Virus record (IMG/VR): IMGVR_UViG_3300007539_000015
From: an uncultured virus (IMG/VR IMGVR_UViG_3300007539_000015)
Taxonomy: Duplodnaviria > Heunggongvirae > Uroviricota > Caudoviricetes
Direction: 5' to 3' (one strand)
Length of the DNA stretch: 20,000 nucleotides
In this document: in pieces, positions 4,309 through 15,829 of the stretch
Layout of the letters: each line of letters opens with the position of its first letter
Position numbering within the stretch: position 1 is the stretch's first letter
Translations under genes and position numbers: made by a program
The notes under the pieces: generated by a model
Databases searched by the model: none
Seen by the model: only the letters and a program-made list of their open reading frames with translations
What the model was told of the DNA's origin: nothing

Positions 4309-5133
4309 ATGGCAAGAAGAGTTAATTATCTCAACAACAAAGACATGTTAATTGAGATACATAGATCAAAAAATTCATTTGCAAGTTATTTAGAAAAAGA
4401 ACATGCAGACTACGATTTAATTTTGAATAGTATTGATAAAATCAATGTTAGAACTATTGCTGAAGCAAAACGTGCAAAAGCAAAAAAACAATCAAATGAA
4501 ATTTATGAACAAGCTAAAGCAAATGGTAAAAAAGTTAAACAAGCCGAATGCGAAGTAGATTACAGAAAAATCAAAAAAGACGAACTAATATTTCGTATTA
4601 TGACATTTGAACACATTCCTGAAGAGCCAGGACGTAAGAAAAACCCTAAAACAGAAGCAGATAAAAAAACAAAACTACCTTTTCCACCTTATCAGCACTA
4701 CAAGTTTGATGAAAACGATAATTTAATTTGTGTAGGCAAAAGTCATTGGGTTGGTGGCATGGAAAATGGACATTTTTCAAAAGATCACGGTAAGGCAACT
4801 AACAAACTTGCTATGATGTGGATGAAACTTGTAGATAGATATGCTACTAGAGGCAATGTTCGTGGATATACTTATAATGACGAAATGAAAGGTCAAGCAA
4901 TATTGCAACTTGCACAAATTGGTTTGCAGTTTGATGAATCAAAATCACAAAACCCGTTTGCATATTACACAGCCGCAGTTACAAATAGCTTTGTTAGAGT
5001 GATTAATTTGGAAAAACGTAACCAAAATATTAGAGACGATATACTAGAAATGAACGATCTTAACCCAAGTCATACTAGAATGCACCAAGGCGAATGGGAA
5101 GCAGCCTTGCGTAGAGAAAAAGAAAGTAATTGA
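4309..5133 (+). CDS. gp55: Late-transcription sigma factor, T4 gp55-like
   Basis: N-terminal NYLNNKDML, plus RGYTYNDEM and FDESKSQNPFAYYT, are typical gp55 motifs. It lies directly upstream of gp47-gp46, as in many T4-like phages. Confidence 0.9.
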   Translation: MARRVNYLNNKDMLIEIHRSKNSFASYLEKEHADYDLILNSIDKINVRTIAEAKRAKAKKQSNEIYEQAKANGKKVKQAECEVDYRKIKKDELIFRIMTFEHIPEEPGRKKNPKTEADKKTKLPFPPYQHYKFDENDNLICVGKSHWVGGMENGHFSKDHGKATNKLAMMWMKLVDRYATRGNVRGYTYNDEMKGQAILQLAQIGLQFDESKSQNPFAYYTAAVTNSFVRVINLEKRNQNIRDDILEMNDLNPSHTRMHQGEWEAALRREKESN

Positions 5134-5183: not shown

Positions 5184-6197
5184 TTGTTTAAAAAAGCCGC
5201 TGTCTTTACGGATATCCACTTTGGATTGAAGGGTAATTCGCGAGTTCATAACCAAGATTGTGAAGAATATGTAGATTGGTTTATCAAAACTGCAAAAGAA
5301 CATGGGTGTGAAACAGCCTTGTTTACTGGTGACTGGAATCACAACAGAAACAGCTTAAATTTAACAACTATGGATTCTGGTATACGCAGTTTAGAAAAGC
5401 TAGGTGCAGCATTTGACAAGTTTTATATGTTTGCTGGCAATCACGATTTGTATTACAAGGATAAACGTGACGTAAAATCTACTGAATTTGCAAGACATAT
5501 ACCTGGTGTGACAGTTATTGAAGATATACATATCGAAGATGACGTTGCATTAGTGCCTTGGTTAGTAGGTGACGAATGGAAACGTATGAGTAGCATTGAA
5601 GCAAAGTATCTGTTTGGACACTTTGAACTTCCTAGTTTTTACATGAATGCTATGGTGCAAATGCCAGATCACGGCGAACTGAAAAGCGAACACTTTGTAA
5701 ATCAAGAGTATGTGTTCAGTGGACACTTCCACAAGCGTCAGAAGCAAGGCAAGATCCACTACATTGGTAATGCTTTCCCACACAACTATGCAGATGCTTG
5801 GGATGATGACCGCGGTATGATGATATTAGACCGTGAGAATGGTGCAGAACCAGAGTATATCAACTGGCTAGACTGCCCTAAGTATAGAACTGTAAGGCTA
5901 TCTCAGTTGATCGATGAAAAAGATACAATGCTAAAAAGCAAAATGTATCTAAGAGTTACCTTAGACTTGCCAGTAAGTTATGAAGAAGCTAGTTTCATTA
6001 AAGAAACATTTATTAGAGATTATGATTGCCGTGAAATAACACTTATTCCACAGAAACAACTTGAAGAAATAAACACAGAACTTGACATTGCACAGTTTGA
6101 AAGTGTTGATCAAATTGTTAGCAACGAAATTATGGCAATTGACAGTGACAACTTTGATAAGGCATTGTTGTTAAACATTTACAACGGTTTAGAATGA
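5184..6197 (+). CDS. gp47: Recombination endonuclease subunit, gp47 (Mre11/SbcD-like metallophosphoesterase)
   Basis: Phosphoesterase motifs TDIHFG, GDWNH, GNHD, GHFE and SGHFH. TTG start with RBS; ATGA overlap with gp46. Confidence 0.93.
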   Translation: MFKKAAVFTDIHFGLKGNSRVHNQDCEEYVDWFIKTAKEHGCETALFTGDWNHNRNSLNLTTMDSGIRSLEKLGAAFDKFYMFAGNHDLYYKDKRDVKSTEFARHIPGVTVIEDIHIEDDVALVPWLVGDEWKRMSSIEAKYLFGHFELPSFYMNAMVQMPDHGELKSEHFVNQEYVFSGHFHKRQKQGKIHYIGNAFPHNYADAWDDDRGMMILDRENGAEPEYINWLDCPKYRTVRLSQLIDEKDTMLKSKMYLRVTLDLPVSYEEASFIKETFIRDYDCREITLIPQKQLEEINTELDIAQFESVDQIVSNEIMAIDSDNFDKALLLNIYNGLE

Positions 6198-7972
6198 TTA
6201 AATTAAAAGATCTTACAGTAAAAAATTTTATGAGTGTGGGTAATGTTACCCAAGCAGTTGATTTCCAAGAGGATCAACTCACTCTAGTGCTTGGTGAAAA
6301 TTTAGATCAAGGAGGTGACGACACTGGATCACGAAACGGAACAGGCAAAACTACAATAATCAATGGATTATCTTACGCCTTGTTCGGCCAAGCACTAACA
6401 AATATCAAGCGTAACAACTTGATAAACAAAACCAACAGCAAGGGCATGTTGGTTACACTAAACTTTGAAAAAGGTGGTAACAAATACCGCATTGAACGTG
6501 GTAGATCACCTAACATACTAAAGTTTTACGTAAACGACAGTGAACAACTTGATGAATTAGAAGATAACAGTCAAGGCGACAGTAGAAAAACACAAGAAAC
6601 TATCAATGACTTGTTGGATATGAGTCATGATATGTTCAAACACATTGTTGCACTTAATACATACACAGAACCTTTCCTAAGTATGCGAGCAAATGACCAA
6701 AGAGCTATTATTGAACAGCTACTTGGTATTACAATACTTACAGAAAAGGCAAATTTATTAAAAGACAGTATCAGATTAACAAAAGATACTATTACAGAAG
6801 AAACATTAAAGATAGAAGCTATACAAAAAGCCAACGAAGGCATTGAAAACACTATTAACAATCTAAAACAAACGCAACGTGCATGGAAAGCCAAGCATAA
6901 TACCGATATTGAACGTTTAGAGTCTGCTATTATAGAGCTAGAACAACTAGATATTGATGCAGAATTAGATAGTCATGAAAAATTGCAAAATTGGACTGAG
7001 TTAAACGCTGCAATTGCTGCACTTAACAAAGAAAAAGCCACATTAGAAAGTGCTCTAATGAGAGCAAACAAAAGTGTAGATAACGCAACCAAGGATATTG
7101 CAGAACTTGACGATGCTACTTGTTATACATGTGGACAAGCACTACATGAAGACAAAAAAGCAGAGATTCTTGCAACTAAAAGCAAAGATTTGCAAGATTC
7201 TATGGCATATCAGACAGAAGTTGCTGGAAAATTAGATGATGTTGTTAAAGGTCTTAACAAAATTGGTGATATCAACGGTCGTCCTACAACATTTTATGAA
7301 ACTGTAAAAGAAGCATATGAACATAGAAACAATGTAGATAATTTGAAGAAATCTTTGCTAAGTAAACAGCAAGAAGAAGATCCTTACCAGGCACAAATTA
7401 ACGATTTAACCAATACAGCATTACAAGAGATCAATTGGGCACCTATTAACGAACTAAACAATGTAAAAGAGCATCAAGACTTCTTGTTGAAGTTACTTAC
7501 AAACAAAGATTCGTTTATTAGAAAGAAGATTATTGATCAAAACTTAGCATATCTAAACAATAGGCTAACTTACTACTTAGATAAAATAGGCTTACCGCAT
7601 CAAGTTGTGTTCCAAAATGATTTAAACGTAGAAATTACACAGCTAGGACAGGATTTAGACTTTGATAACTTGTCACGTGGCGAACGTAACAGGCTAATAC
7701 TCGGTCTTTCCTTTGCATTCCGCGATGTTTGGGAAAGTTTATATCAAGGCATTAACTTGTTGTTCATTGACGAGCTTATTGATAGCGGAATGGACACAGC
7801 AGGCGTAGAAAACAGCATAGGCATACTGAAAAAGATGACTAGAGAACGTGATAAGAACGTTTTCTTGATTAGTCACAAGGATGAACTAGTAGGCAGAGTG
7901 AATAATGTATTAAGAGTTGTTAAAGAAAACGGCTTTACAAGTTATGCAACAGATATTGACATAGTAGATTGA
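6194..7972 (+). CDS. gp46: Recombination endonuclease ATPase subunit, gp46 (Rad50/SbcC-like)
   Basis: KNFMSVGN start, Walker A NGTGKT, coiled coil with zinc hook CYTCGQ, signature LSRGE, Walker B LFIDE, H-loop ISH. Confidence 0.95.
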   Translation: MIKLKDLTVKNFMSVGNVTQAVDFQEDQLTLVLGENLDQGGDDTGSRNGTGKTTIINGLSYALFGQALTNIKRNNLINKTNSKGMLVTLNFEKGGNKYRIERGRSPNILKFYVNDSEQLDELEDNSQGDSRKTQETINDLLDMSHDMFKHIVALNTYTEPFLSMRANDQRAIIEQLLGITILTEKANLLKDSIRLTKDTITEETLKIEAIQKANEGIENTINNLKQTQRAWKAKHNTDIERLESAIIELEQLDIDAELDSHEKLQNWTELNAAIAALNKEKATLESALMRANKSVDNATKDIAELDDATCYTCGQALHEDKKAEILATKSKDLQDSMAYQTEVAGKLDDVVKGLNKIGDINGRPTTFYETVKEAYEHRNNVDNLKKSLLSKQQEEDPYQAQINDLTNTALQEINWAPINELNNVKEHQDFLLKLLTNKDSFIRKKIIDQNLAYLNNRLTYYLDKIGLPHQVVFQNDLNVEITQLGQDLDFDNLSRGERNRLILGLSFAFRDVWESLYQGINLLFIDELIDSGMDTAGVENSIGILKKMTRERDKNVFLISHKDELVGRVNNVLRVVKENGFTSYATDIDIVD

Positions 7973-8214
7973 TGGATTCGGATACACACGATAAAATAAT
8001 ACTTGCTGTGCTTGAATATTTTGAACTAAACGAAATATTCAACCATCGTCCTGCAGAATTAAAACGCAGGAAGGTGCGTAAAAAGCTATCTGAACTACGC
8101 AATCTATGCAATGTTAGGCGAGAAGAAATACTACAAGAACATATTAGGCATGTAAAAGACGGCAGAGCAAAAAATAATCCAGAAAAGGCACGAGAAGCAA
8201 AGACAAACAAGTAA
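7972..8214 (+). CDS. Small basic helical hypothetical protein (possibly nucleic-acid binding)
   Basis: About 80 aa; likely start ATG 7972 overlapping the gp46 stop (TGATG). Basic helix KRRKVRKKLSELRNLCNVRREEI. Confidence 0.7.
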   Translation: MDSDTHDKIILAVLEYFELNEIFNHRPAELKRRKVRKKLSELRNLCNVRREEILQEHIRHVKDGRAKNNPEKAREAKTNK

Positions 8215-8221
8215 CTATTAT

Positions 8222-8656
8222 ATGAATTGGACTTACAAAGGTAAAGAAATAACCGAAATATCGGATGAATATGAAGGATTCGTTTACCTTATAACCAATT
8301 TAACAGACAATCGCAAATATGTAGGCAAAAAACTAGCTAAATTTAAAACAACCAAGCCACCTCTAAAAGGCAAAAAGAACAAACGCAGAGGTCACAAAGA
8401 ATCAGATTGGCGAGACTATTGGGGATCATCAGATAAACTAATAGCAGACGTAGAAAAATTAGGCGAAAACAAATTCACTAGAGAAATACTTTACTTTTGT
8501 AAATCTAGAGGCGAAATGTCATACTTAGAGGCACGAGAACAATTTGAACGTAGAGTTTTAGAAACAGATGAATACTACAATGGTATTATAAACGTTCGAG
8601 TTGGTGGTTCAAAAATACTTAGAGAAAATTTAAAGGCACATCAGGACACTGTTTGA
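8222..8656 (+). CDS. Stand-alone GIY-YIG family endonuclease (Seg-like catalytic domain only)
   Basis: GFVYLITNLTDNRKYVGKK is a GIY-YIG motif variant. It also has YWGSS, a candidate catalytic Glu in YLEAREQ and a terminal YYN. At 144 aa it has no room for a NUMOD/HTH DNA-binding tail. Confidence 0.85.
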   Translation: MNWTYKGKEITEISDEYEGFVYLITNLTDNRKYVGKKLAKFKTTKPPLKGKKNKRRGHKESDWRDYWGSSDKLIADVEKLGENKFTREILYFCKSRGEMSYLEAREQFERRVLETDEYYNGIINVRVGGSKILRENLKAHQDTV

Positions 8657-8943
8657 TCGGAATTGTTCGATCCACCTTGAGCTTCACGTAACCACGTGAT
8701 CAGATACTGGTGAAGTCCAACAGGCTGTATGCTACGAAAACCCCTTAGCACTAGGAACGAAGCGGGGGATAGCGCATTTTGCGTGATGTCGACGTAGGTT
8801 GGGAAAGGTCAGAGCCCAGTAGCATAGTCAAATACCTACTTCCGATCTCGGCCATGCTACTCGTATGAAGCTTTGAGAAGATGGAACCGCTAGTAGGTTC
8901 CGTCTGACCAATTAATCTGTATGAAACTACAGTGCTTCGCACT
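8649..8943 (+). ncRNA. Candidate large structured non-coding RNA of unrecognised family, with pseudoknots
   Basis: 145/300 G+C (48%) over 8641-8940 in an otherwise AT-rich window, with no credible ORF. Helices: 8655-8661/8666-8672, 8684-8689/8694-8699, 8728-8735/8819-8826, 8772-8776/8780-8784, 8794-8799/8834-8839, 8800-8803/8815-8818, 8807-8813/8903-8909, 8879-8888/8896-8905. Several G-U pairs occur on the + strand, favouring that orientation. Boundaries are approximate. Confidence 0.65.
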
Positions 8944-9010
8944 TAAGATAAACAAATATGTGTTGAGTGACAACGAAAACACAGATGAACGTAGTTCATC
9001 TTAATAGTAG

Positions 9011-9016
9011 TAAATA
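9011..9016 (+). promoter_or_regulatory. Late promoter core TAAATA
   Basis: GTAAATATAATATG: TAAATA ends 4 nt before ATG 9021. Confidence 0.55.
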
Positions 9017-9020
9017 TAAT

Positions 9021-9506
9021 ATGGCAACAGAATTAGTAAGAAATATTGTAAAAAAAGCAAATACTCCACAAATGTGTTGGAGAACACCTAATAGTGGACA
9101 GTGTGGTAAGTGTGAACGCAATTGGGCAAGTGATGAAGAAGATGGCGTGTTTCATATTGATGAAAAAGATTTAAACATACTCCTTGATATGCTTAAAGGA
9201 TATGAATATGAAACTATCACTCGTAAAAAAGAGATAAAAAATATATACAAAGAAAGTTGGACATTGCCAGTTGGTAGAGTTACTAGTGACACTAGTAGAT
9301 TGCCACGAATTGTTTTGCTGTTAGAGTCAACTTTAGGTAATGCTGTGATAACAGGTAAAGTTATTCAAGCAGCAAACACATTGAGTTGGAGCAGCACCTG
9401 TGAAATACGTGATAAAATTATTCTTGGATTAGGTTTCAAGGATAGAGGTGGCAAAGAAGTGTTTGCTGATGAAAAGTTAAAACAAATATATGCAGAAGAT
9501 AAATAA
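9021..9506 (+). CDS. Hypothetical protein (161 aa) with an N-terminal Cys cluster
   Basis: The ORF track starts at GTG 8967, but that lies inside the hairpin cluster. ATG 9021, right after TAAATA, is more plausible. Contains CWRTPNSGQCGKC. Confidence 0.6.
   Translation: MATELVRNIVKKANTPQMCWRTPNSGQCGKCERNWASDEEDGVFHIDEKDLNILLDMLKGYEYETITRKKEIKNIYKESWTLPVGRVTSDTSRLPRIVLLLESTLGNAVITGKVIQAANTLSWSSTCEIRDKIILGLGFKDRGGKEVFADEKLKQIYAEDK
9500..9505 (+). promoter_or_regulatory. Late promoter core TAAATA
   Basis: GATAAATAA overlapping the end of the previous ORF; AAGGA RBS and ATG 9527 follow. Confidence 0.55.
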
Positions 9507-9526
9507 TTTATATTAAGGAAACTCTC

Positions 9527-10204
9527 ATGAAAGTATTTCAAGTTATTGCAGAACAAAATGAATTAGATGAAATTGGATTAAATCCGTTTGGAAAACTTGC
9601 TCGTCAACAACGTGCAGCAAATAAAGCTGGCAAACAAAGTATAAAAGACGAAGTAAATCAATTGCGTATTGAGTTTAACGCATTTCTTAAAACAAGCAAG
9701 CAGCCTGCAACTGCTGGCACACTGTTAAATTACTTGAAGCAAAAAGGTTACGGAGCAGAAGCAGCAGCTATTATTAAAGCACTACCAAGCAAAGGCAGCA
9801 AGATGAGAGCAAAAGCTGCTGCACAGGATAAAAAAGCAGCAGCACAAGCAGCAGCACAAAAGACAGCAGCTGGTCAAGCAGCAGCCGCAGCTGGTTTAGG
9901 CAATCAAGGAAGTGCAGCAAGCATTAACAAGATGCCAGCTGATCAACAGAAGATTGCAAGACTAGCAGCAAGTCAATACGATGAAGCAGCAGCAGGCGAT
10001 GTATTAAGCGGCGGACAAATCAAAAGTGTTATTGACCAAGTTGTAAGAAAAGGCTTTACTAGCAAAGCAGGATATTCAAAAGGTAAATTTGCTGGTGACG
10101 AACCACCTGCAACATTTAAGTCTGCTCAGGGTGCACCAGGTGATGCAACACAAAAAGCAATTGCACTTTTGAAAAAAGCAGGTTACACTGTAACTAAAGA
10201 TTAA
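9527..10204 (+). CDS. Ala/Lys-rich hypothetical late protein, possibly an internal head protein
   Basis: 225 aa with an RBS and late promoter. N-terminus MKVFQVIAEQNELDE; low-complexity AAAQ/KKAAA stretch. Confidence 0.7.
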   Translation: MKVFQVIAEQNELDEIGLNPFGKLARQQRAANKAGKQSIKDEVNQLRIEFNAFLKTSKQPATAGTLLNYLKQKGYGAEAAAIIKALPSKGSKMRAKAAAQDKKAAAQAAAQKTAAGQAAAAAGLGNQGSAASINKMPADQQKIARLAASQYDEAAAGDVLSGGQIKSVIDQVVRKGFTSKAGYSKGKFAGDEPPATFKSAQGAPGDATQKAIALLKKAGYTVTKD

Positions 10205-11354: not shown

Positions 11355-14123
11355 GTGACTGATACAGATATTCGTAATGTAGGTGGACCAGATGGTGTAG
11401 CCAGTGAAGCAACTCTTATGAGACTTGTTGAATTAACAAGATCAATGCAAAGAGGCACCAATGCTGCGGCTCAAGCTGAAGCTAGACTACGCAAAGCACA
11501 CAATGATTCTGTAGCAAAAGGCACAAAAGAACTTGGACTACTTGGTAAAGCAGCTGACCTAGCTGGAAAAGGTTTAAACAAGTATGCCAATGTTTTGCAA
11601 CACGGTGTTAGTGGTGTAAGCGACTTTAGCAAATACATTTTAGGCAGCAACAGCGCACTACAAAGACTAGTTGAATATGCTGACCAAAGCACACATCAAT
11701 TTAGAGAACTAAGCCAAGTTGGTGCAGGATTCAGCAACAGTATTTTTGAAATGAACAAAGTTGCTGCAACCAGTGGCATGGCTATGACACAGTTTTACGA
11801 AACTATATCTGGCAACAGTGAAGTGTTAAGGATGCTAGGCGGCACAGTCACAGACGGTGCAAAACGTTTCTCAGAAATATCAAAAGGTATCCGTCAAAGT
11901 GATCTTGGTCAAAGACTTTTACAATTAGGATTTACTGCTCAAGATATCAACGAAGGCTTTCTGTCTTATTCAAACAACATGCAACGCCAAGGATTATTGC
12001 AACGCATGAGCAATGCAGAGTTAATTGAAGGTAGTGCAAACTATCTAAAAGAAATTGACTTGCTTGCAAAAGCAACAGGCAAAAACAGACAAGAATTATT
12101 GAATCAAACCAGCGAGTTGCAAAACAGTGCAGCATTCCAGGCATTGCAAGCAAGAGCAAGTGCTGACGGTGCAGGACAACTCGAACGCAACATGGCAAGT
12201 CTTGCAAGTTTCTTACCAGGCTTTACTGGCGACATCATGGACATGGCAAGTGGATTGCGTGGTAGCCAATTAGAAATAGGTTTGAGTCAAAGTGCTGCTG
12301 GTCAACAAATGGTTAACTTGATTAGAAACATGGAAGGTATGAGCAATACTGAATTCCTAAGAAACATGCAGGAACTTGGTCCTCTTATTGGTAATACTGT
12401 TGCAGCAATGGATCCAGCACAGATTAGAGCATTGAGAACACAAGGTAGTCCTTTGGCTGCACTGTTTGATGCGATGCCTGCCTTTAGAGCAATGGCAAAC
12501 ATTGATCCTGATGCAGCTGAAAAAGAACAAGAACAACGTAATAAACTAACAGAATTGTTTGCAGGATTTTCAGATGCAATATCAAGATTGTCATCATTTA
12601 TCTTAGAGGAATTTTTGAACAGTGAAACGTTTGAATCTTTGAGAAGAATTGGCAACAGCCTGTCTGAGACATTCACACAATTGTTTGGCGAACAAGGTGA
12701 AAGCGGTGCTTTTGCTAATGCAAGCACAGGAATTAAAAATTTTACAACAACAATTGATACATGGTTTGTTGAAAATATTACTCAACCGTTACAAGCATTT
12801 ATAGATGATTTTAATAACTTTAGTGCAGAAGGCGGAACACCTTTAGAATTTTTGAAAATGAAAGTCACAGAAGCAGGTAATGCTATTGCTGACTATTTGT
12901 TAGGTCCTATTGAAAGTGAACCTGGAGGTCCAAACAGAGGACAACGAGCTGGCGGCATACTTAAAAAAATCACAGACGGTATAGCAAATGCATTCAGCGG
13001 AGACGGTGCAAGTAATTTTTTAACTAGTATCAGTGATAGTATTAAAGGTGTATACGAAAAACTAACAGCAGACGGAACATTTATAAGTGATGTAACAAAA
13101 AGTGTCACTGACATTTTTACAAACCTAACAAGCGATCAAGGTTTTATAACAAACATCAGTAATGCAGTAACTAAAATATTCACAGACTTAACAAGCGATC
13201 AAGGGTTTATTACAAAAATTAATGATGCAATTTCAAGTATTTTTTCTGATCAAGGTGTAATTTCTAGTGTAAGCACTGCCTTTAGTGATTTTATGAAGAA
13301 CAATACTGTAATACAAGCAATGTCAGATGCTATATCAAATGCAATGGATACTGTAGAAACCAGTCTGCGTGACTGGCTTGGTATGTCTCCAGGTGAAACG
13401 TTTACACAAAAAATAACCTCACTAGTCACAGACTTAACAAATTCAATTTTAGATATTATAAATGAAAAGATACCAACATTAATTAGCACAGCAGTAAGTG
13501 CTGCGGTAAGAGCTGTTACCGGAGAAGGTAGAAGAAATTCAGTTACTGGTACACCCGATAGTGCTGGAGCAGAAACTATATTAGGGGACATTCAAGGAGA
13601 TGGACTATTTAATTTTGACGATCTTGCTAAATTTGGATTATACGGATTAACAGATGTTAATGAAGTGGGTGGACAAGAATTAGTAAATAAGATATTCGCA
13701 GCAAGCGGCTTAGACACTGGGTTCTGGGCTGGCAACACCCAAAATCCGTGGAGTAACAATAGATCTGTTGGCGATTTAAGCAGAGCATTGGATGAATTGA
13801 GAATACAAAATCAACAAGGAACAATTTCTAATGAAGCGTTAGAACTATTAGGACAACTAAATGCAGCATTACCAAACAAAAGAGTTGGCACATTAAGAGC
13901 AACTGGAAATCCGTTTGAACAAAAAGATGGATTACAGTTTGTGCATAGAGGAGAACAGATTATACCAGCAGGCGAAGCTAATATGACTCGTCAGTCTGAT
14001 GTGGTTGCTGCCATAAATCGGTTAAATACTACTACCATGCAATTACTCGCAGCAACAAATCAAACCAACCGCGGGGTTCGCGGAATTAGCAACGACTTCT
14101 TGAAAGGAGCGTTAACAGTATGA
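11355..14123 (+). CDS. Tail tape-measure-like protein (gp29 functional analogue)
   Basis: 922 aa, helical, A/G/S/Q-rich, with internal 21-aa repeats and a C-terminal FVHRGEQIIP motif common near tape-measure C-termini. Adjacent to the chaperone-like pair; GTG start with AGGA RBS. Confidence 0.75.
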   Translation: MTDTDIRNVGGPDGVASEATLMRLVELTRSMQRGTNAAAQAEARLRKAHNDSVAKGTKELGLLGKAADLAGKGLNKYANVLQHGVSGVSDFSKYILGSNSALQRLVEYADQSTHQFRELSQVGAGFSNSIFEMNKVAATSGMAMTQFYETISGNSEVLRMLGGTVTDGAKRFSEISKGIRQSDLGQRLLQLGFTAQDINEGFLSYSNNMQRQGLLQRMSNAELIEGSANYLKEIDLLAKATGKNRQELLNQTSELQNSAAFQALQARASADGAGQLERNMASLASFLPGFTGDIMDMASGLRGSQLEIGLSQSAAGQQMVNLIRNMEGMSNTEFLRNMQELGPLIGNTVAAMDPAQIRALRTQGSPLAALFDAMPAFRAMANIDPDAAEKEQEQRNKLTELFAGFSDAISRLSSFILEEFLNSETFESLRRIGNSLSETFTQLFGEQGESGAFANASTGIKNFTTTIDTWFVENITQPLQAFIDDFNNFSAEGGTPLEFLKMKVTEAGNAIADYLLGPIESEPGGPNRGQRAGGILKKITDGIANAFSGDGASNFLTSISDSIKGVYEKLTADGTFISDVTKSVTDIFTNLTSDQGFITNISNAVTKIFTDLTSDQGFITKINDAISSIFSDQGVISSVSTAFSDFMKNNTVIQAMSDAISNAMDTVETSLRDWLGMSPGETFTQKITSLVTDLTNSILDIINEKIPTLISTAVSAAVRAVTGEGRRNSVTGTPDSAGAETILGDIQGDGLFNFDDLAKFGLYGLTDVNEVGGQELVNKIFAASGLDTGFWAGNTQNPWSNNRSVGDLSRALDELRIQNQQGTISNEALELLGQLNAALPNKRVGTLRATGNPFEQKDGLQFVHRGEQIIPAGEANMTRQSDVVAAINRLNTTTMQLLAATNQTNRGVRGISNDFLKGALTV
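13063..13251 (+). repeat. Three degenerate 63-nt (21-aa) tandem repeats inside the tape-measure gene
   Basis: TAACAAGCGATCAAGG at 13126 and 13189 (63 apart), with a diverged copy at 13063. Protein units: LTADGTFISDVTKSVTDIFTN / LTSDQGFITNISNAVTKIFTD / LTSDQGFITKINDAISSIF. Confidence 0.8.
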
Positions 14124-15829
14124 GTTGGAAGAAACACTTTACTCCAGTAGCCACAAGTATGAATGTTGGCGGTAGCTATTCGCCTTTTAGCTTTAACAAA
14201 GGCCAAGGCGTAGGTCCAGCAGCAGCAAACTACAGTTCTCACTTACCAGATGTTTATGTTGGTTCACCAAACCGTATTGAACGCTATGGTCAATACAACA
14301 CCATGGACAACGACAGTGAAGTAAATGCTGCTCTTGACATACTTGCAGAGTTCTGTTCGCAGAAAAACAAAGAAAATCAAACTCCATTTAAACTGGTATT
14401 CAGCAAAGCACCAACCAACACTGAAGTTCAAGTAATTGGCCAGTATCTTAAACAGTGGTGCAAGATACAAGAATTTGAAAAGCGTATCTTTAAAATTATT
14501 AGAAACGTGTTTAAGTTTGGCGATCAGTTCTTTATTAGAGATCCAGAAACACAAAAGTGGTTTCATGTTGATCCAGCCAATGTAACTAAAATTATTGTTA
14601 ACGAATCACAAGGCAAACGTCCAGAACAGTATATTGTCAAAGACATTAACATTGCCTTTGAAGCACTGAGTGCAACAAAAATCAACACAAATCAAGCATA
14701 TGGCCCAGGCGGCGGCGCTGGCTATCAAACACTTGATCAAAAATATATGACAGGAAGAACACCTGACAGCAACAACAGTAGATTTGGCAACGAAGCAAAT
14801 GAAACAGCAGTTGATGCACAACATGTGGTTCACTTGTCAATGAGCGAAGGATTAGACCAAAACTTTCCTTTTGGCAACAGTTTGCTAGAAAGTATTTTCA
14901 AAGTATACAAGCAAAAAGAACTGCTTGAAGATGCGATTATTATCTATCGTGTCCAACGTGCGCCTGAGCGCAGAGTATTCTACGTTGATGTGGGCAACAT
15001 GCCATCACACCTTGCTATGCAGTTTGTGGAGCGTGTAAAAACGGAAATTCATCAAAGAAGAATCCCATCCAAGACAGGCGGTGGCCAAACAGTCATAGAC
15101 AGCAGTTACAACCCGCTATCAATTAACGAAGACTACTTCTTTCCTCAAACTGCTGAAGGCCGCGGCAGTAAGGTTGAAACACTACCAGGCGGAACAAATC
15201 TGGGAGAAATTGACGATTTAAAGTATTTTACAAACAAATTACTACGTGGCTTGCGTATTCCTTCGAGCTACTTGCCAACTGGCGCAGATGACAGTGCAAG
15301 CCAATACAATGATGGTAGAGTGGGCACAGCGTATATTCAAGAATTGCGTTTCAACAATTATTGCGAACGCTTGCAAAGCATGATTACTGATGTTTTTAAC
15401 AATGAATTCAAACTGTATCTCAATAAGAAAGGTATCAATGTCGATGTTGCTATGTTTGATCTAAAACTGCAACCTCCGCAAAACTTTGCAAGCTATAGAC
15501 AAGCTGAACTTGATAACAACAGAATATCAACTTTTGCACAAATGCAACAAATTCCGTTTATTTCCAATAGATTTGCTCTTGGACGTTTCTTAGGATTGAG
15601 CAAAGAGGAAATTGCAGAAAACGAAAGACTGTGGCGTGAAGAAAACGACGAATACTTTAATGCAGGTGATGTTGATGCGGCAGCACAATTAAGAGATGCA
15701 GGTATCACCGGAAGCGACATCAATAATGATTTAGAAGCTACAGCAGGAGATGAAGTAGAAACTGACGATATTGCAGCTGGAGGTGACGAAACTGCGGTAG
15801 GAGCAGACGATACTGCAACAGAGGCATAA
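14120..15829 (+). CDS. gp20: Portal vertex protein, T4 gp20-like
   Basis: LLEDAIIIYRVQRAPERRVFYVDVGNMP and EDYFFPQTAEGRGSKVETLPGG are hallmark gp20 motifs; acidic C-terminal tail. Confidence 0.97.
   Translation: MSWKKHFTPVATSMNVGGSYSPFSFNKGQGVGPAAANYSSHLPDVYVGSPNRIERYGQYNTMDNDSEVNAALDILAEFCSQKNKENQTPFKLVFSKAPTNTEVQVIGQYLKQWCKIQEFEKRIFKIIRNVFKFGDQFFIRDPETQKWFHVDPANVTKIIVNESQGKRPEQYIVKDINIAFEALSATKINTNQAYGPGGGAGYQTLDQKYMTGRTPDSNNSRFGNEANETAVDAQHVVHLSMSEGLDQNFPFGNSLLESIFKVYKQKELLEDAIIIYRVQRAPERRVFYVDVGNMPSHLAMQFVERVKTEIHQRRIPSKTGGGQTVIDSSYNPLSINEDYFFPQTAEGRGSKVETLPGGTNLGEIDDLKYFTNKLLRGLRIPSSYLPTGADDSASQYNDGRVGTAYIQELRFNNYCERLQSMITDVFNNEFKLYLNKKGINVDVAMFDLKLQPPQNFASYRQAELDNNRISTFAQMQQIPFISNRFALGRFLGLSKEEIAENERLWREENDEYFNAGDVDAAAQLRDAGITGSDINNDLEATAGDEVETDDIAAGGDETAVGADDTATEA

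What the first reader, a model, noticed from the sequence alone, without database searches (positions are those of the whole stretch)
8649..8943. Unexplained ~300-nt GC-rich, pseudoknotted non-coding element: candidate new large structured RNA or ribozyme
Seen: genes in this window abut or overlap, yet 8657-9020 has no credible ORF, and 8641-8940 is 48% GC. Local hairpins: GATCGGA/TTCGATC (8655-8672), TCACGT/ACGTGA (8684-8699), GCGCA/TGCGT (8772-8784), TGGG/CCCA (8800-8818) and AGATGGAACC/GGTTCCGTCT (8879-8905). Long-range perfect pairings: TATGCTAC/GTAGCATA (8728-35/8819-26), GTAGGT/ACCTAC (8794-99/8834-39, which crosses the previous helix) and loop GGTCAGA with TCTGACC (8807-13/8903-09, partly competing with the 8879-8905 stem). 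CTGTT/AACAG (8649-53/8719-23) could close a 5' multiloop domain. Inference: crossing helices and purine-rich linkers (GAAAA, GGGAAAGG) are typical of large tertiary-folded RNAs such as ribozymes or RNP scaffolds. I do not recognise it as tRNA, tmRNA, RNase P, SRP or a canonical intron.
Basis: partly seen in the sequence, partly recalled or inferred. Interest (0 to 1): 0.9.

Follow-up and report, generated by a model that had tools for sequence, protein, structure and literature searches.

The report
New folded RNA in aquatic jumbo phages
The gene-free 300 bases after a small nuclease gene encode a heavily folded RNA, shared by hundreds of uncultured aquatic phages and matching no described RNA family, whose job is still unknown.

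Summary
Window 8644-8943 (+ strand) is a conserved, non-coding, double-pseudoknotted RNA element, not a chance fold or a dead gene. It lies downstream of sbcC, a small ORF and a 144-aa GIY-YIG nuclease gene in a T4-like uncultured aquatic phage lineage. I found it in 139 distinct IMG/VR versions, 114 distinct metagenome versions and 2 contigs of one MAG.

On 93 distinct sequences, 96.7% of proposed pairs form, against 33-40% when partners are slid. There are 435 two-sided compensatory cells. The crossing helix 8794-99/8834-39 covaries at one pair: 21 of 21 true homologs. The loop-tail pairing is never violated.

No Rfam family, tRNA or tmRNA matches. No ORF is conserved.

The RNA does not need the GIY-YIG gene. 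The gene upstream is GIY-YIG in 155 of 163 evaluable cases, a PDDEXK nuclease in 4 and another gene in 4.

An unexplained feature: two direct 7-nt repeats about 56 nt apart are identical within each phage (92 of 93; 100 of 102) but differ between phages.

Function is unknown. The scan met the same kind of element before on other DNA (e1-5735907).

The parts
7969..7997 (+). sigma-70-like promoter-like site (TTGATG, 17 nt, TAAAAT) ahead of the small ORF, the nuclease gene and the RNA
   Evidence: Consensus scan only. Contigs from RNA libraries begin at 7991, 8011 and 8016. Weak.
7969..8214 (+). Small basic ORF (81 aa) of unknown family between sbcC and the nuclease gene
   Evidence: ORF list. 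No Pfam or PHROG hit. Weakly conserved at this position in related loci.
8222..8656 (+). GIY-YIG nuclease gene, 144 aa, catalytic domain only
   Evidence: Pfam PF19835 SegE_GIY-YIG, E 2.5e-34. Length is 140-151 aa in the 79 complete relatives (one more copy is cut off at its contig end). GIY/YIG and downstream motifs are at least 95% conserved in 130 unique homologs.
8644..8718 (+). Variable 5' domain (type A). It has a closing helix GGAC 8644-47 / GUCC 8715-18, hairpin 8655-61/8666-72, helix CACC 8673-76 / GGUG 8709-12 with a conserved internal loop (UUGAG ... CAGA), and hairpin 8684-89/8694-99. It overlaps the last codons and the stop codon of the nuclease gene.
   Evidence: Other relatives carry different 5' domains (by eye).
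8728..8826 (+). Long-range helix P3 (8728-35 with 8819-26). It encloses the P4-P6 part and the 5' strand of P7.
   Evidence: Five pairs have three pair types each.
8736..8740 (+). A-rich joiner (GAAAA here, UAAAAA in most relatives)
   Evidence: Invariant A columns.
8741..8768 (+). Helix P4/P5 (8741-45 with 8764-68, and 8748-49 with 8762-63), capped by the 12-nt loop ACUAGGAACGAA, in which AGGAACGA is invariant
   Evidence: Two-sided changes occur in 6-7 of its 7 pairs.
8769..8787 (+). Hairpin P6 of variable size (19 nt here, more than 100 nt in some relatives) with a covarying base
8785..8818 (+). Nearly invariant core GAUGUCGAC-GUAGGU-UGGGAAAGGUCAGAGCCCA. It holds the P7 5' strand (8794-99) and hairpin P7.1 (8800-03 with 8815-18, loop 8804-14).
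   Evidence: Invariant columns. P7.1 covaries at 2 pairs once divergent members are added.
8834..8839 (+). P7 3' strand ACCUAC. It pairs with 8794-99 and crosses P3, which makes pseudoknot 1.
   Evidence: When U8795 is C, A8838 is G in 21 of 21 true homologs. One unpaired cell in its six pairs, 99.8% paired.
8859..8870 (+). Repeat copy 1: ACUC + heptamer GUAUGAA (8863-69) + G8870 (G in 91 of 93)
   Evidence: One RNA-library contig ends at 8870 and runs into what I recognise as sequencing adapter. Weak.
8880..8904 (+). Hairpin P9 (8880-88 with 8896-8904). The 5' strand varies and the 3' strand is fixed.
   Evidence: 61 one-sided changes that keep the pairing, 12 unpaired cells, 98.6% paired.
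8905..8909 (+). UGACC. It pairs with loop GGUCA 8807-11, which makes pseudoknot 2.
   Evidence: 0 unpaired cells and one-sided changes only. It is therefore compatible with pairing but not proven by covariation.
8914..8926 (+). Repeat copy 2: AAUCU + heptamer GUAUGAA (8919-25) + A
8931..8943 (+). Terminal hairpin (AGUGC UUC GCACU). Its sequence varies between relatives. In locus L277 a run of U follows it.
   Evidence: By eye. Not counted formally.

Best explanation
Window 8644-8943 is a gene for a new family of about 300-nt structured RNA, read on the + strand.

Shown or hinted:
- It appears to be made as the tail of an early-type transcript that starts near 8000 and runs through the small ORF and the nuclease gene. 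This is a hint only.
- It folds into a compact core with two pseudoknots, in this order: P3, A-rich joiner, P4/P5 with an invariant loop, variable P6, invariant linker, P7, P7.1, P3', P7'. Then comes a 3' module in which hairpin P9 is clamped to the P7.1 loop. A heptamer that is identical on both sides flanks this module.

Inferred:
- I read it as an autonomous RNA of the phage.
- The slot just upstream is usually filled by a small nuclease gene of the homing-endonuclease type, most likely because such genes settle beside very conserved sequence.
- The most likely mode of action is a processed RNA. It would be cut just after heptamer copy 1, at the invariant G8870, and by analogy after copy 2. 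The near-invariant core would either carry out or direct that processing (ribozyme-like), or bind a conserved partner.
For: Conservation and non-coding nature.
- The element lies downstream of the nuclease gene in most of 80 related loci, at 72-97% identity.
- No ORF is conserved.
- About 60 nt are invariant while the neighbouring proteins differ by about 20%.

Structure.
- 96.7% of cells are paired, against 33-40% when partners are slid. There are 435 two-sided changes, against 18-103 when slid. None of 500 shuffles reaches this (on 100 sequences is similar).
- P7 was not in the model used to align, and it covaries in 21 of 21.
- One-sided changes make G.U on the + strand.

Independence from one nuclease.
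- Upstream gene in IMG/VR: GIY-YIG 102, PDDEXK 4, other 4, out of 110 distinct elements.
- In metagenome contigs: GIY-YIG 53 of 53.
- L296 and L297 carry near-identical RNAs behind different genes.

Processing and transcription (weak).
- RNA-library contigs cover 7991-8870.
- One contig ends at 8870 in adapter-like letters.
- G8870 is G in 91 of 93 sequences.

No known family.
Against: - The nested folding energy is no better than shuffles.
- The alignments behind searches were fitted to the nested helices by the model, so those counts lean towards the structure.
- The sequences were chosen for a change at 8795.
- Pseudoknot 2 and most of P7 are invariant, so they are compatible with pairing but not proven.
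- Transcription is not proven. The runs are contigs from RNA libraries, and these can hold DNA.
- The 3' end at 8870 rests on one contig in one run.
- No catalysis, partner or target is shown.
- A nuclease gene is upstream in 159 of 163 evaluable cases. In L214 a broken nuclease gene goes with a core-deleted RNA. Both facts fit a functional pair as well as they fit my reading.
- Nothing in this explanation accounts for why the two heptamers must be identical.
Confidence: 0.4

Rival explanations
1. Nuclease and RNA form one functional unit, an RNP. The 140-152 aa nuclease has no DNA-binding domain and would use the RNA as scaffold, regulator or targeting subunit. The two identical heptamers would be paired recognition elements for a two-fold symmetric target.
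For: - A small nuclease gene lies directly upstream in 159 of 163 evaluable distinct elements.
- Two unrelated nuclease folds, GIY-YIG and PDDEXK, occupy the same slot.
- The RNA's 5' helix overlaps the nuclease stop codon.
- The nuclease is catalytic-domain-only, with conserved active-site motifs.
- None of 53 sbcC loci of the lineage shows an empty site, unlike sporadic homing genes.
- In L214 both the nuclease gene and the RNA are degenerate.
Against: - 4 of 110 elements follow a non-nuclease gene: a 220-aa protein of unknown family in 3, and a radical-SAM-like protein in 1.
- No segment behaves like a variable guide. One heptamer, ACAUGAA, dominates (63 of 100; 82 of 102).
- No inverted pair of the heptamer exists in the 97.8-kb nearest record.
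- Binding was not tested.
Confidence: 0.25
2. A group-I-derived ribozyme without exons. The P3/P7 pseudoknot around a P4-P6 part is the group I core, G8870 plays the part of the terminal G, and the RNA cuts itself there.
For: - The order of helices matches the group I core order as I recall it: P3, A-rich joiner, P4, P5, P4', P6, P7, an extra hairpin, P3', P7'.
- A near-invariant G lies 31 nt after P7', at the one observed 3' end.
- The phage setting beside a GIY-YIG gene fits.
Against: - Rfam Intron_gpI and the other Rfam families give no match at E up to 10 in the window, or at E up to 5 in 18 members.
- No interrupted gene: sbcC is complete and the downstream genes differ between relatives.
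- I found no P1 or guide sequence.
- There is no P8 hairpin in the window. Only 7 nt lie between P3' and P7'.
- P7 has no bulge.
Confidence: 0.15
3. A cis-acting regulatory RNA, that is a riboswitch, attenuator or antiterminator, at the end of an early operon. It would decide whether transcription or decay proceeds into the genes downstream. The two similar segments 8834-70 and 8893-8926 would act as alternative partners.
For: - It sits between an early-type unit and a late-promoter-like TAAATA at 9011-16 (the promoter consensus is recalled).
- It ends in a terminator-like hairpin, which a U run follows in L277.
- The 3' strand of P9 is invariant while its 5' strand varies, as expected if it has a second partner.
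Against: - The downstream genes are not conserved.
- No known riboswitch class matches.
- No covariation supports an alternative fold.
Confidence: 0.1
4. A DNA-level element, such as a replication origin or a recombination or slippage site. It would use the direct repeats and hairpins as DNA, with or without a primer transcript.
For: - Identity-dependent direct repeats flanking a strong hairpin are what strand-exchange or re-pairing mechanisms require.
- The locus lies beside recombination genes sbcC and sbcD.
Against: - Pseudoknots, conserved loops and G.U-making changes on one strand point to a folded single strand.
- No deletion alleles between the repeats appear among the 93 and 102 distinct elements examined.
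- No joint across the repeats appears in 4 runs.
Confidence: 0.05
5. A decayed coding region, for example the lost DNA-binding domain of the nuclease, or a gene read in another genetic code.
For: Under TGA=W the nuclease frame runs on to 8797, giving 191 aa.
Against: - The short nuclease length is constant at 140-152 aa.
- No ORF is conserved.
- The variation pattern is compensatory in helices, not codon-like.
- All other genes in the window read normally in table 11.
Confidence: 0.02

Closest known systems
Group I intron core and its exon-less relative, the GIR1 lariat-capping ribozyme (recalled, not from a call)
   Same: A P3/P7-type pseudoknot encloses a P4-P6-like part with an A-rich joiner. 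There is an extra hairpin between P7 and P3', as in subgroup IA. The setting is a phage, next to a GIY-YIG gene. A conserved G lies at a 3' end.
   Different: There is no Rfam match, no exons, no P1 or guide, and no P8 in the window. A second pseudoknot clamps a 3' hairpin. The identical heptamers have no counterpart.
HEARO / IscB omega-RNA: a large structured RNA next to a small nuclease gene (recalled)
   Same: A structured RNA of a few hundred nt lies next to a compact nuclease gene and was first seen only by comparative genomics.
   Different: Here the RNA also follows other genes in 4 of 110 cases. No guide-like variable end was found. The nuclease folds differ (GIY-YIG, PDDEXK). There is no Rfam match.
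Large phage-associated RNAs of unknown function, such as ROOL and GOLLD (recalled)
   Same: Ornate, conserved, found in phages and metagenomes, function unknown.
   Different: This one is smaller (about 300 nt), has a different sequence and fold (no Rfam match), and has a fixed place after sbcC.
T4 gene 60 bypass element with the MobA endonuclease cassette (recalled)
   Same: Matched short sequences lie about 50-60 nt apart around a hairpin, beside a phage endonuclease gene, and identity of the two sites is required.
   Different: No reading frame runs into the first repeat. The median open stretch upstream is 13-15 codons. The repeats are 7 nt, not a codon. Variants such as ACAGGAA have no stop codon after the first triplet.
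Ssn small GIY-YIG single-strand DNA nucleases with their repeat motifs (Chenal et al. 2025, PMC11893778; I read only the abstract and outline)
   Same: A tiny GIY-YIG enzyme is associated with a structured nucleic-acid motif near its own gene.
   Different: The Ssn motifs are short DNA repeats present in many copies. This is a single 300-nt pseudoknotted element. The nearest record has one copy. Its nuclease hits the SegE-type Pfam family.

Membership tests
Group I intron (Rfam RF00028) | Match to the family covariance model | tested here: not met
   No hit at E up to 10 in window 7700-9300. None at E up to 5 in 18 diverse members.
Group I intron (Rfam RF00028) | P3/P7 pseudoknot enclosing a P4-P6 domain | tested here: met
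   P3, P4/P5, P6 and P7 are supported. The crossing pair 8795/8838 covaries in 21 of 21. This is a match of topology only.
Group I intron (Rfam RF00028) | Interrupts a gene, with a P1 helix holding a U.G 5' splice site and an internal guide | tested here: not met
   sbcC is complete (PHROG profile matched to 952 of 967). Downstream genes differ between relatives. I found no P1 candidate by eye. There was no formal search.
Group I intron (Rfam RF00028) | Terminal G at the 3' splice site, bound in P7 | tested here: inconclusive
   G8870 is G in 91 of 93 sequences. One RNA-library contig ends there. No test of chemistry was possible.
tmRNA (one- or two-piece) | tRNA-like acceptor and T arm plus a tag reading frame | tested here: not met
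   ARAGORN finds none in the window or in 36 loci. Rfam finds none. The CCCC/GGGG helix is only 4-5 bp.
RNase P RNA, SRP RNA, 6S RNA and known riboswitch or ribozyme classes in Rfam 15 | Match to the family model | tested here: not met
Nuclease-bound guide RNA (omega-RNA type) | Obligate linkage to one nuclease family, and a variable guide segment | tested here: not met
   The upstream gene is another nuclease fold in 4, and not a recognisable nuclease in 4, of 110 elements. No variable segment with a complementary partner was found.
Free-standing homing endonuclease (Seg type), for the upstream gene | GIY-YIG catalytic domain | tested here: met
   PF19835, E 2.5e-34. Motifs are conserved.
Free-standing homing endonuclease (Seg type), for the upstream gene | C-terminal DNA-binding domain and patchy presence among relatives | tested here: not met
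   Length is only 140-152 aa. It is present in 155 of 163 evaluable elements. None of 53 sbcC loci shows an empty site.
Translational bypass element (T4 gene 60 type) | Matched take-off and landing sites inside a reading frame | tested here: not met
   The repeats match. No frame is open upstream; the median is 13-15 codons.

The most novel reading that the evidence does not exclude
The RNA is the targeting and scaffold subunit of a new RNA-dependent nuclease system. An internally duplicated RNA presents two identical 7-nt recognition elements on either side of a clamp, and so directs a domain-less GIY-YIG or PDDEXK nuclease to a two-fold symmetric nucleic-acid target. This would explain three things: why the two heptamers must stay identical while differing between phages, why a catalytic-domain-only nuclease almost always sits upstream, and why unrelated nuclease folds can replace each other.
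Probability: 0.07. Interest if true: 0.95.

Novelty: categorically new. Interest (0 to 1): 0.78.

Why it matters
Large RNAs with conserved tertiary folds are rare, and most that were followed up turned out to be ribozymes, riboswitches or RNP cores. It is confined to one uncultured lineage of large T4-like aquatic phages, and its core is more conserved than the proteins around it.

It also has a kind of covariation that I know from no described RNA. Two direct repeats are kept identical rather than complementary. That points to a mechanism in which the same reader, or a re-pairing step, uses both sites.

If the RNA is catalytic, or if it partners the minimal nuclease, it would be a new tool-like system. 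If it is neither, it is still a well-defined target for structure and function work on phage non-coding RNA.

Tried and rejected
- **Coding remnant or other genetic codes.** No conserved ORF. Codes 4 and TAG=Q only extend frames by reading through several stops.
- **tRNA or tmRNA.** ARAGORN finds none. My idea of a permuted tmRNA, based on the CCCC/GGGG helix and a UCGAC-like stretch, failed because the helix is 4-5 bp with no G.U at the third pair.
- **Rfam.** Nothing. The C/D-box snoRNA hits at E 0.4-3 are noise.
- **Cultured phages.** blastn of the element finds nothing. The model finds nothing in the whole records of Phosso and PA5oct. Methylophilales phage Melnitz has a related GIY-YIG gene elsewhere, followed by 148 nt with no likeness to this element.
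- **Heptamers pairing with each other.** Fails for the AUAAU and AUAAA variants (by hand).
- **A third, complementary partner for the heptamers.** No column shares their information. No reverse-complement copy is nearby.
- **Pairing of the heptamers with AUGU 8786-89, and a 'sense codon plus stop codon' reading.** Both fail on the variants ACAGGAA and ACAGAAA.
- **Full complement to a tRNA anticodon loop.** Position 37 would be G where A is expected (recalled knowledge).
- **Gene-60-type bypass.** No open frame upstream.
- **Inverted pairs of the heptamer as a target.** None in the 97.8-kb nearest record, in either order. This record is only 27% complete.
- **RNAalifold on a plain MAFFT alignment.** It gave little.
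- **Metatranscriptome cover.** No contig of 4 RNA-library runs covers 8873-8939. Contigs stop at 8766, 8814, 8818 and 8870 and resume at 8976-8980. A hole in contigs proves nothing, and I draw no conclusion from it. No joint across the repeats was seen. One joint, 8550 to 8784 (one contig, 29 letters on the short side), is unexplained.
- **A divergent group (L025, L058, L077, L080).** It shares the 3' module, the loop-tail pairing and identical heptamers (GAAUAAU), but not P3-P6 (by eye). I could not align it well enough to count pairs.
- **Literature.** Searches for 'sbcC motif', 'sbcC RNA motif', 'GIY-YIG-associated RNA' and 'homing endonuclease-associated RNA' found 0 papers. 'GIY-YIG' / 'noncoding RNA' / 'pelagiphage' found nothing relevant among the 15 listed of 34 papers. 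The library lacks most subscription journals.
Full report
**Setting**

The window comes from a T4-like phage. It holds these genes:
- a late sigma factor (4309-5133)
- SbcD (5184-6197) and SbcC (6194-7972)
- baseplate proteins
- a gp20-type portal (14120-15829)
- a prohead protease

The nearest cultured relatives by SbcC are jumbo phages: Sinorhizobium phage Phosso, Pseudomonas phage PA5oct and Agrobacterium phage Atu_ph07, at only 44-48% identity. The phage therefore belongs to an uncultured lineage. After sbcC come an 81-aa ORF (7969-8214) and a 144-aa GIY-YIG gene (8222-8656; Pfam SegE_GIY-YIG, E 2.5e-34). The gene-free stretch 8657-9020 follows.

**Checking the observation**

- GC is 0.46-0.50 across 8600-8899, against about 0.33-0.38 beside it.
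- The only ORF of 40 aa or more is a 63-aa frame on the - strand. It has no family hit and is not kept in relatives.
- The nested minimum free energy is not better than dinucleotide shuffles: z = -0.51 on the + strand and -0.89 on the - strand. The test ignores pseudoknots, however, and the comparative evidence below overrides it.

**Relatives**

I kept 80 loci.
- blastn shows the 364-nt stretch downstream of most of them, at 72-97% identity.
- Nearly all lie after sbcC and the small ORF. The genes further downstream differ.
- In all I counted 139 distinct versions in IMG/VR loci and 114 in metagenome contigs.
- No cultured phage has the element. blastn finds nothing, and my covariance model finds nothing in the whole Phosso and PA5oct records.
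- Rfam 15 gives nothing in the window, in 20 related loci or in 18 diverse members at E up to 5.
- ARAGORN finds no tRNA or tmRNA.

**Structure of the core**

I aligned 43 members with a short variable hairpin (A1). From the nested helices I built model R1 and used it to align 100 sequences twice. A3 holds the main type. A4 adds divergent members.

On A4 (93 distinct rows) the proposed structure, including two pseudoknots that were not in the model, gave these counts:
- 96.7% of cells paired, against 33-40% with partners slid by 1-3 columns
- 435 cells changed on both sides, against 18-103 when slid
- none of 500 shuffles as high

Helix by helix, in window coordinates:

| Helix | Coordinates | Result |
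|---|---|---|
| P3 | 8730-34 with 8820-24 | 20-53 two-sided changes per pair, three pair types each |
| P4/P5 | 8741-45/8764-68 and 8748-49/8762-63 | Two-sided changes in all 7 pairs on A4 (6 of 7 on A3) |
| P6 | 8769-87 | Covarying base; size grows from 19 nt to over 100 nt |
| P9 | 8880-88/8896-8904 | 61 one-sided changes that keep pairing, almost all by making G.U or restoring G-C; 12 unpaired cells |
| P7.1 | 8800-03/8815-18 | Covaries at two pairs |
| Loop-tail pairing | 8807-11 with 8905-09 | One-sided changes only, no violation |

For the crossing helix P7 (8794-99 with 8834-39) I ran a scan that required a non-U at 8795 and left 8838 free. It returned 25 hits. The 21 true homologs all have C at 8795 with G at 8838. 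The other 4 hits are not members of the family (I inspected two of them, L284 and L304, and both are unrelated sequence).

Caveats:
- A3 and A4 are fitted to the nested helices by the model.
- The sequences were selected for a change on one side.
- Related sequences can beat shuffles without any structure.

**The 5' domain**

The 5' domain differs between subgroups. For the window's type (19 sequences, A5), one search gives:
- Hairpin 8655-61/8666-72: 100% paired, with 2 covarying pairs.
- Helix CACC 8673-76 / GGUG 8709-12: 100% paired, with 8 + 8 two-sided changes.
- A closing helix GGAC 8644-47 / GUCC 8715-18: 100% paired, with 2 compensatory cells.
- The hairpin at 8684-99 is replaced in relatives by hairpins of other sequence. 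All 19 have one, and 17 have 5 or more pairs.

The closing helix starts inside the last codons of the nuclease gene.

**The identical heptamers**

After ACUC (8859-62) and after AAUCU (8914-18) stand two copies of a 7-nt word, GUAUGAA in the window.
- In 93 anchored distinct sequences the two copies are identical in 92, although at least 9 different words occur.
- In the metagenome sample they are identical in 100 of 102.
- Divergent members add the words ACAGGAA and ACAGAAA, again identical within each sequence.
- The mutual information between matching positions equals their full entropy for four of the five variable positions, and is 0.69 of 0.82 bits for the fifth. No third column shares it.
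- No reverse-complement copy lies nearby.
- The spacing is 54-68 nt, with no preference for a frame.
- By eye the likeness extends over about 35 nt (8834-70 against 8893-8926), so this looks like an internal duplication.

This is covariation by identity, not by complementarity. I tested and rejected several explanations:
- pairing between the two copies
- a stop-codon reading
- a gene-60-type bypass
- a local complementary guide

Mechanisms that demand identity are re-pairing of a nascent strand, strand exchange, or one reader used twice. Those remain open.

**Expression**

Twelve runs on record as RNA hold part of the stretch. I laid four of them. All four are contigs, from four studies that may be one campaign. 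In them:
- Contigs cover the small ORF, the nuclease gene and the first two thirds of the element. They start at 7991-8016.
- One contig ends at 8870 and continues into letters that I recognise as Illumina adapter. The orientation fits a + strand fragment end.
- A sigma-70-like site lies at 7969-7997.
- G8870 is G in 91 of 93 sequences.

Contigs from RNA libraries can hold DNA and cannot show levels. These are hints only.

**The gene upstream**

- The GIY-YIG protein is 140-152 aa in all complete copies, and its motifs are conserved in 130 unique homologs. It is the catalytic domain alone.
- Among 110 distinct IMG/VR elements with at least 750 nt upstream, the gene is GIY-YIG in 102. It is a 170-aa PDDEXK nuclease in 4 (Pfam PF24608, E 4.5e-24), a 220-233-aa protein without family in 3, and a radical-SAM-like protein in 1.
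- In metagenome contigs it is GIY-YIG in 53 of 53.
- L296 and L297 carry almost the same RNA behind different genes.
- Among 53 sbcC loci with at least 1100 nt of downstream sequence, none shows an empty site. 8 of the 53 end before the place where the RNA would lie.
- L214 has a broken GIY-YIG gene together with an RNA whose core is deleted.

The RNA is therefore the constant part and the upstream slot varies. Even so, a small nuclease fills that slot far more often than chance placement would explain.

**Reading**

Shown:
- This is a real, conserved, pseudoknotted RNA family with no described relative.

Inferred:
- It is an autonomous RNA that is processed after the first heptamer, beside which nuclease genes settle (0.4).
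- The main rival is a functional nuclease-RNA pair (0.25).
- A group-I-derived ribozyme (0.15) fits the order of helices and the conserved G, but it fails the model search and has no exons, P1 or P8.
- A cis-regulatory role (0.1), a DNA-level role (0.05) and decayed coding sequence (0.02) are less likely.

I checked both myself. I did not test its ColE1-type mechanism.

**Novelty**

My four-term search found 0 papers. A second search listed nothing relevant among the 15 listed of 34 papers. For the Melnitz paper (PMC9004378) I read passages on tmRNA. It places the phage two-piece tmRNA elsewhere in the genome and does not describe this element. The searched library lacks most subscription journals, so an earlier description cannot be excluded.

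Noticed in passing
window 8960-9001: Two further conserved hairpins lie between the RNA and the next gene. The first is GUGUU-[GAGUGACAACGAA]-AACAC, whose stem covaries and whose loop (GAGYG..ARCGAA) is conserved and resembles the GC-GNAA-GC form of hairpin P6. The second is 8985-9001, whose stem sequence varies. RNA-library contigs resume at 8976-8980.
   Followed up: partly
window 9009-9016: AGTAAATA lies just before the ATG at 9021, and similar TAAATA words occur in relatives. It looks like a T4-type late promoter (consensus recalled). If so, the downstream gene has its own late start.
   Followed up: no
loci L025, L058, L077, L080 (and weak model hits in L207, L221, L224, L228, L261): This is a second, divergent form of the element behind the same GIY-YIG gene. 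It keeps the central hairpin with the AGGUCA loop, its pairing to UGAC after a GC-rich hairpin, and identical heptamers (GAAUAAU). It replaces the P3-P6 part with other hairpins, and it has a boxA-like word CUCUUUUAACAA (boxA consensus recalled).
   Followed up: partly
locus L214 3400-4250: A degenerate copy of the locus. The GIY-YIG frame is broken, and the RNA lacks about 60-70 nt of its invariant core (P7 to P7') but keeps P4, both heptamers and P9.
   Followed up: partly
loci L311, L312: The only hits in 185,579 species genomes are two large contigs (335 kb and 153 kb) binned in one Candidatus Neomarinimicrobiota MAG from the Red Sea. They are probably phage contigs in the bin. At most this is a weak hint of the host.
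   Followed up: no
locus L308 7411-8424 (Sinorhizobium phage Phosso) and L309 7868-8530 (PA5oct): The cultured distant relatives have unannotated gaps of about 1 kb and 0.66 kb, 1.6-2.1 kb downstream of sbcC. My model finds no copy of this RNA there. What they hold is unknown.
   Followed up: partly
window 8550-8784: One RNA-library contig (run X3) joins 8550 to 8784, skipping 233 nt, with 29 letters on the short side. This may be a related phage or an assembly artefact.
   Followed up: no
window 9523: A contig of run X2 begins at 9523 preceded by adapter-like letters, 4 nt before the ATG of ORF 9527-10204. This may be a transcript or fragment 5' end.
   Followed up: no
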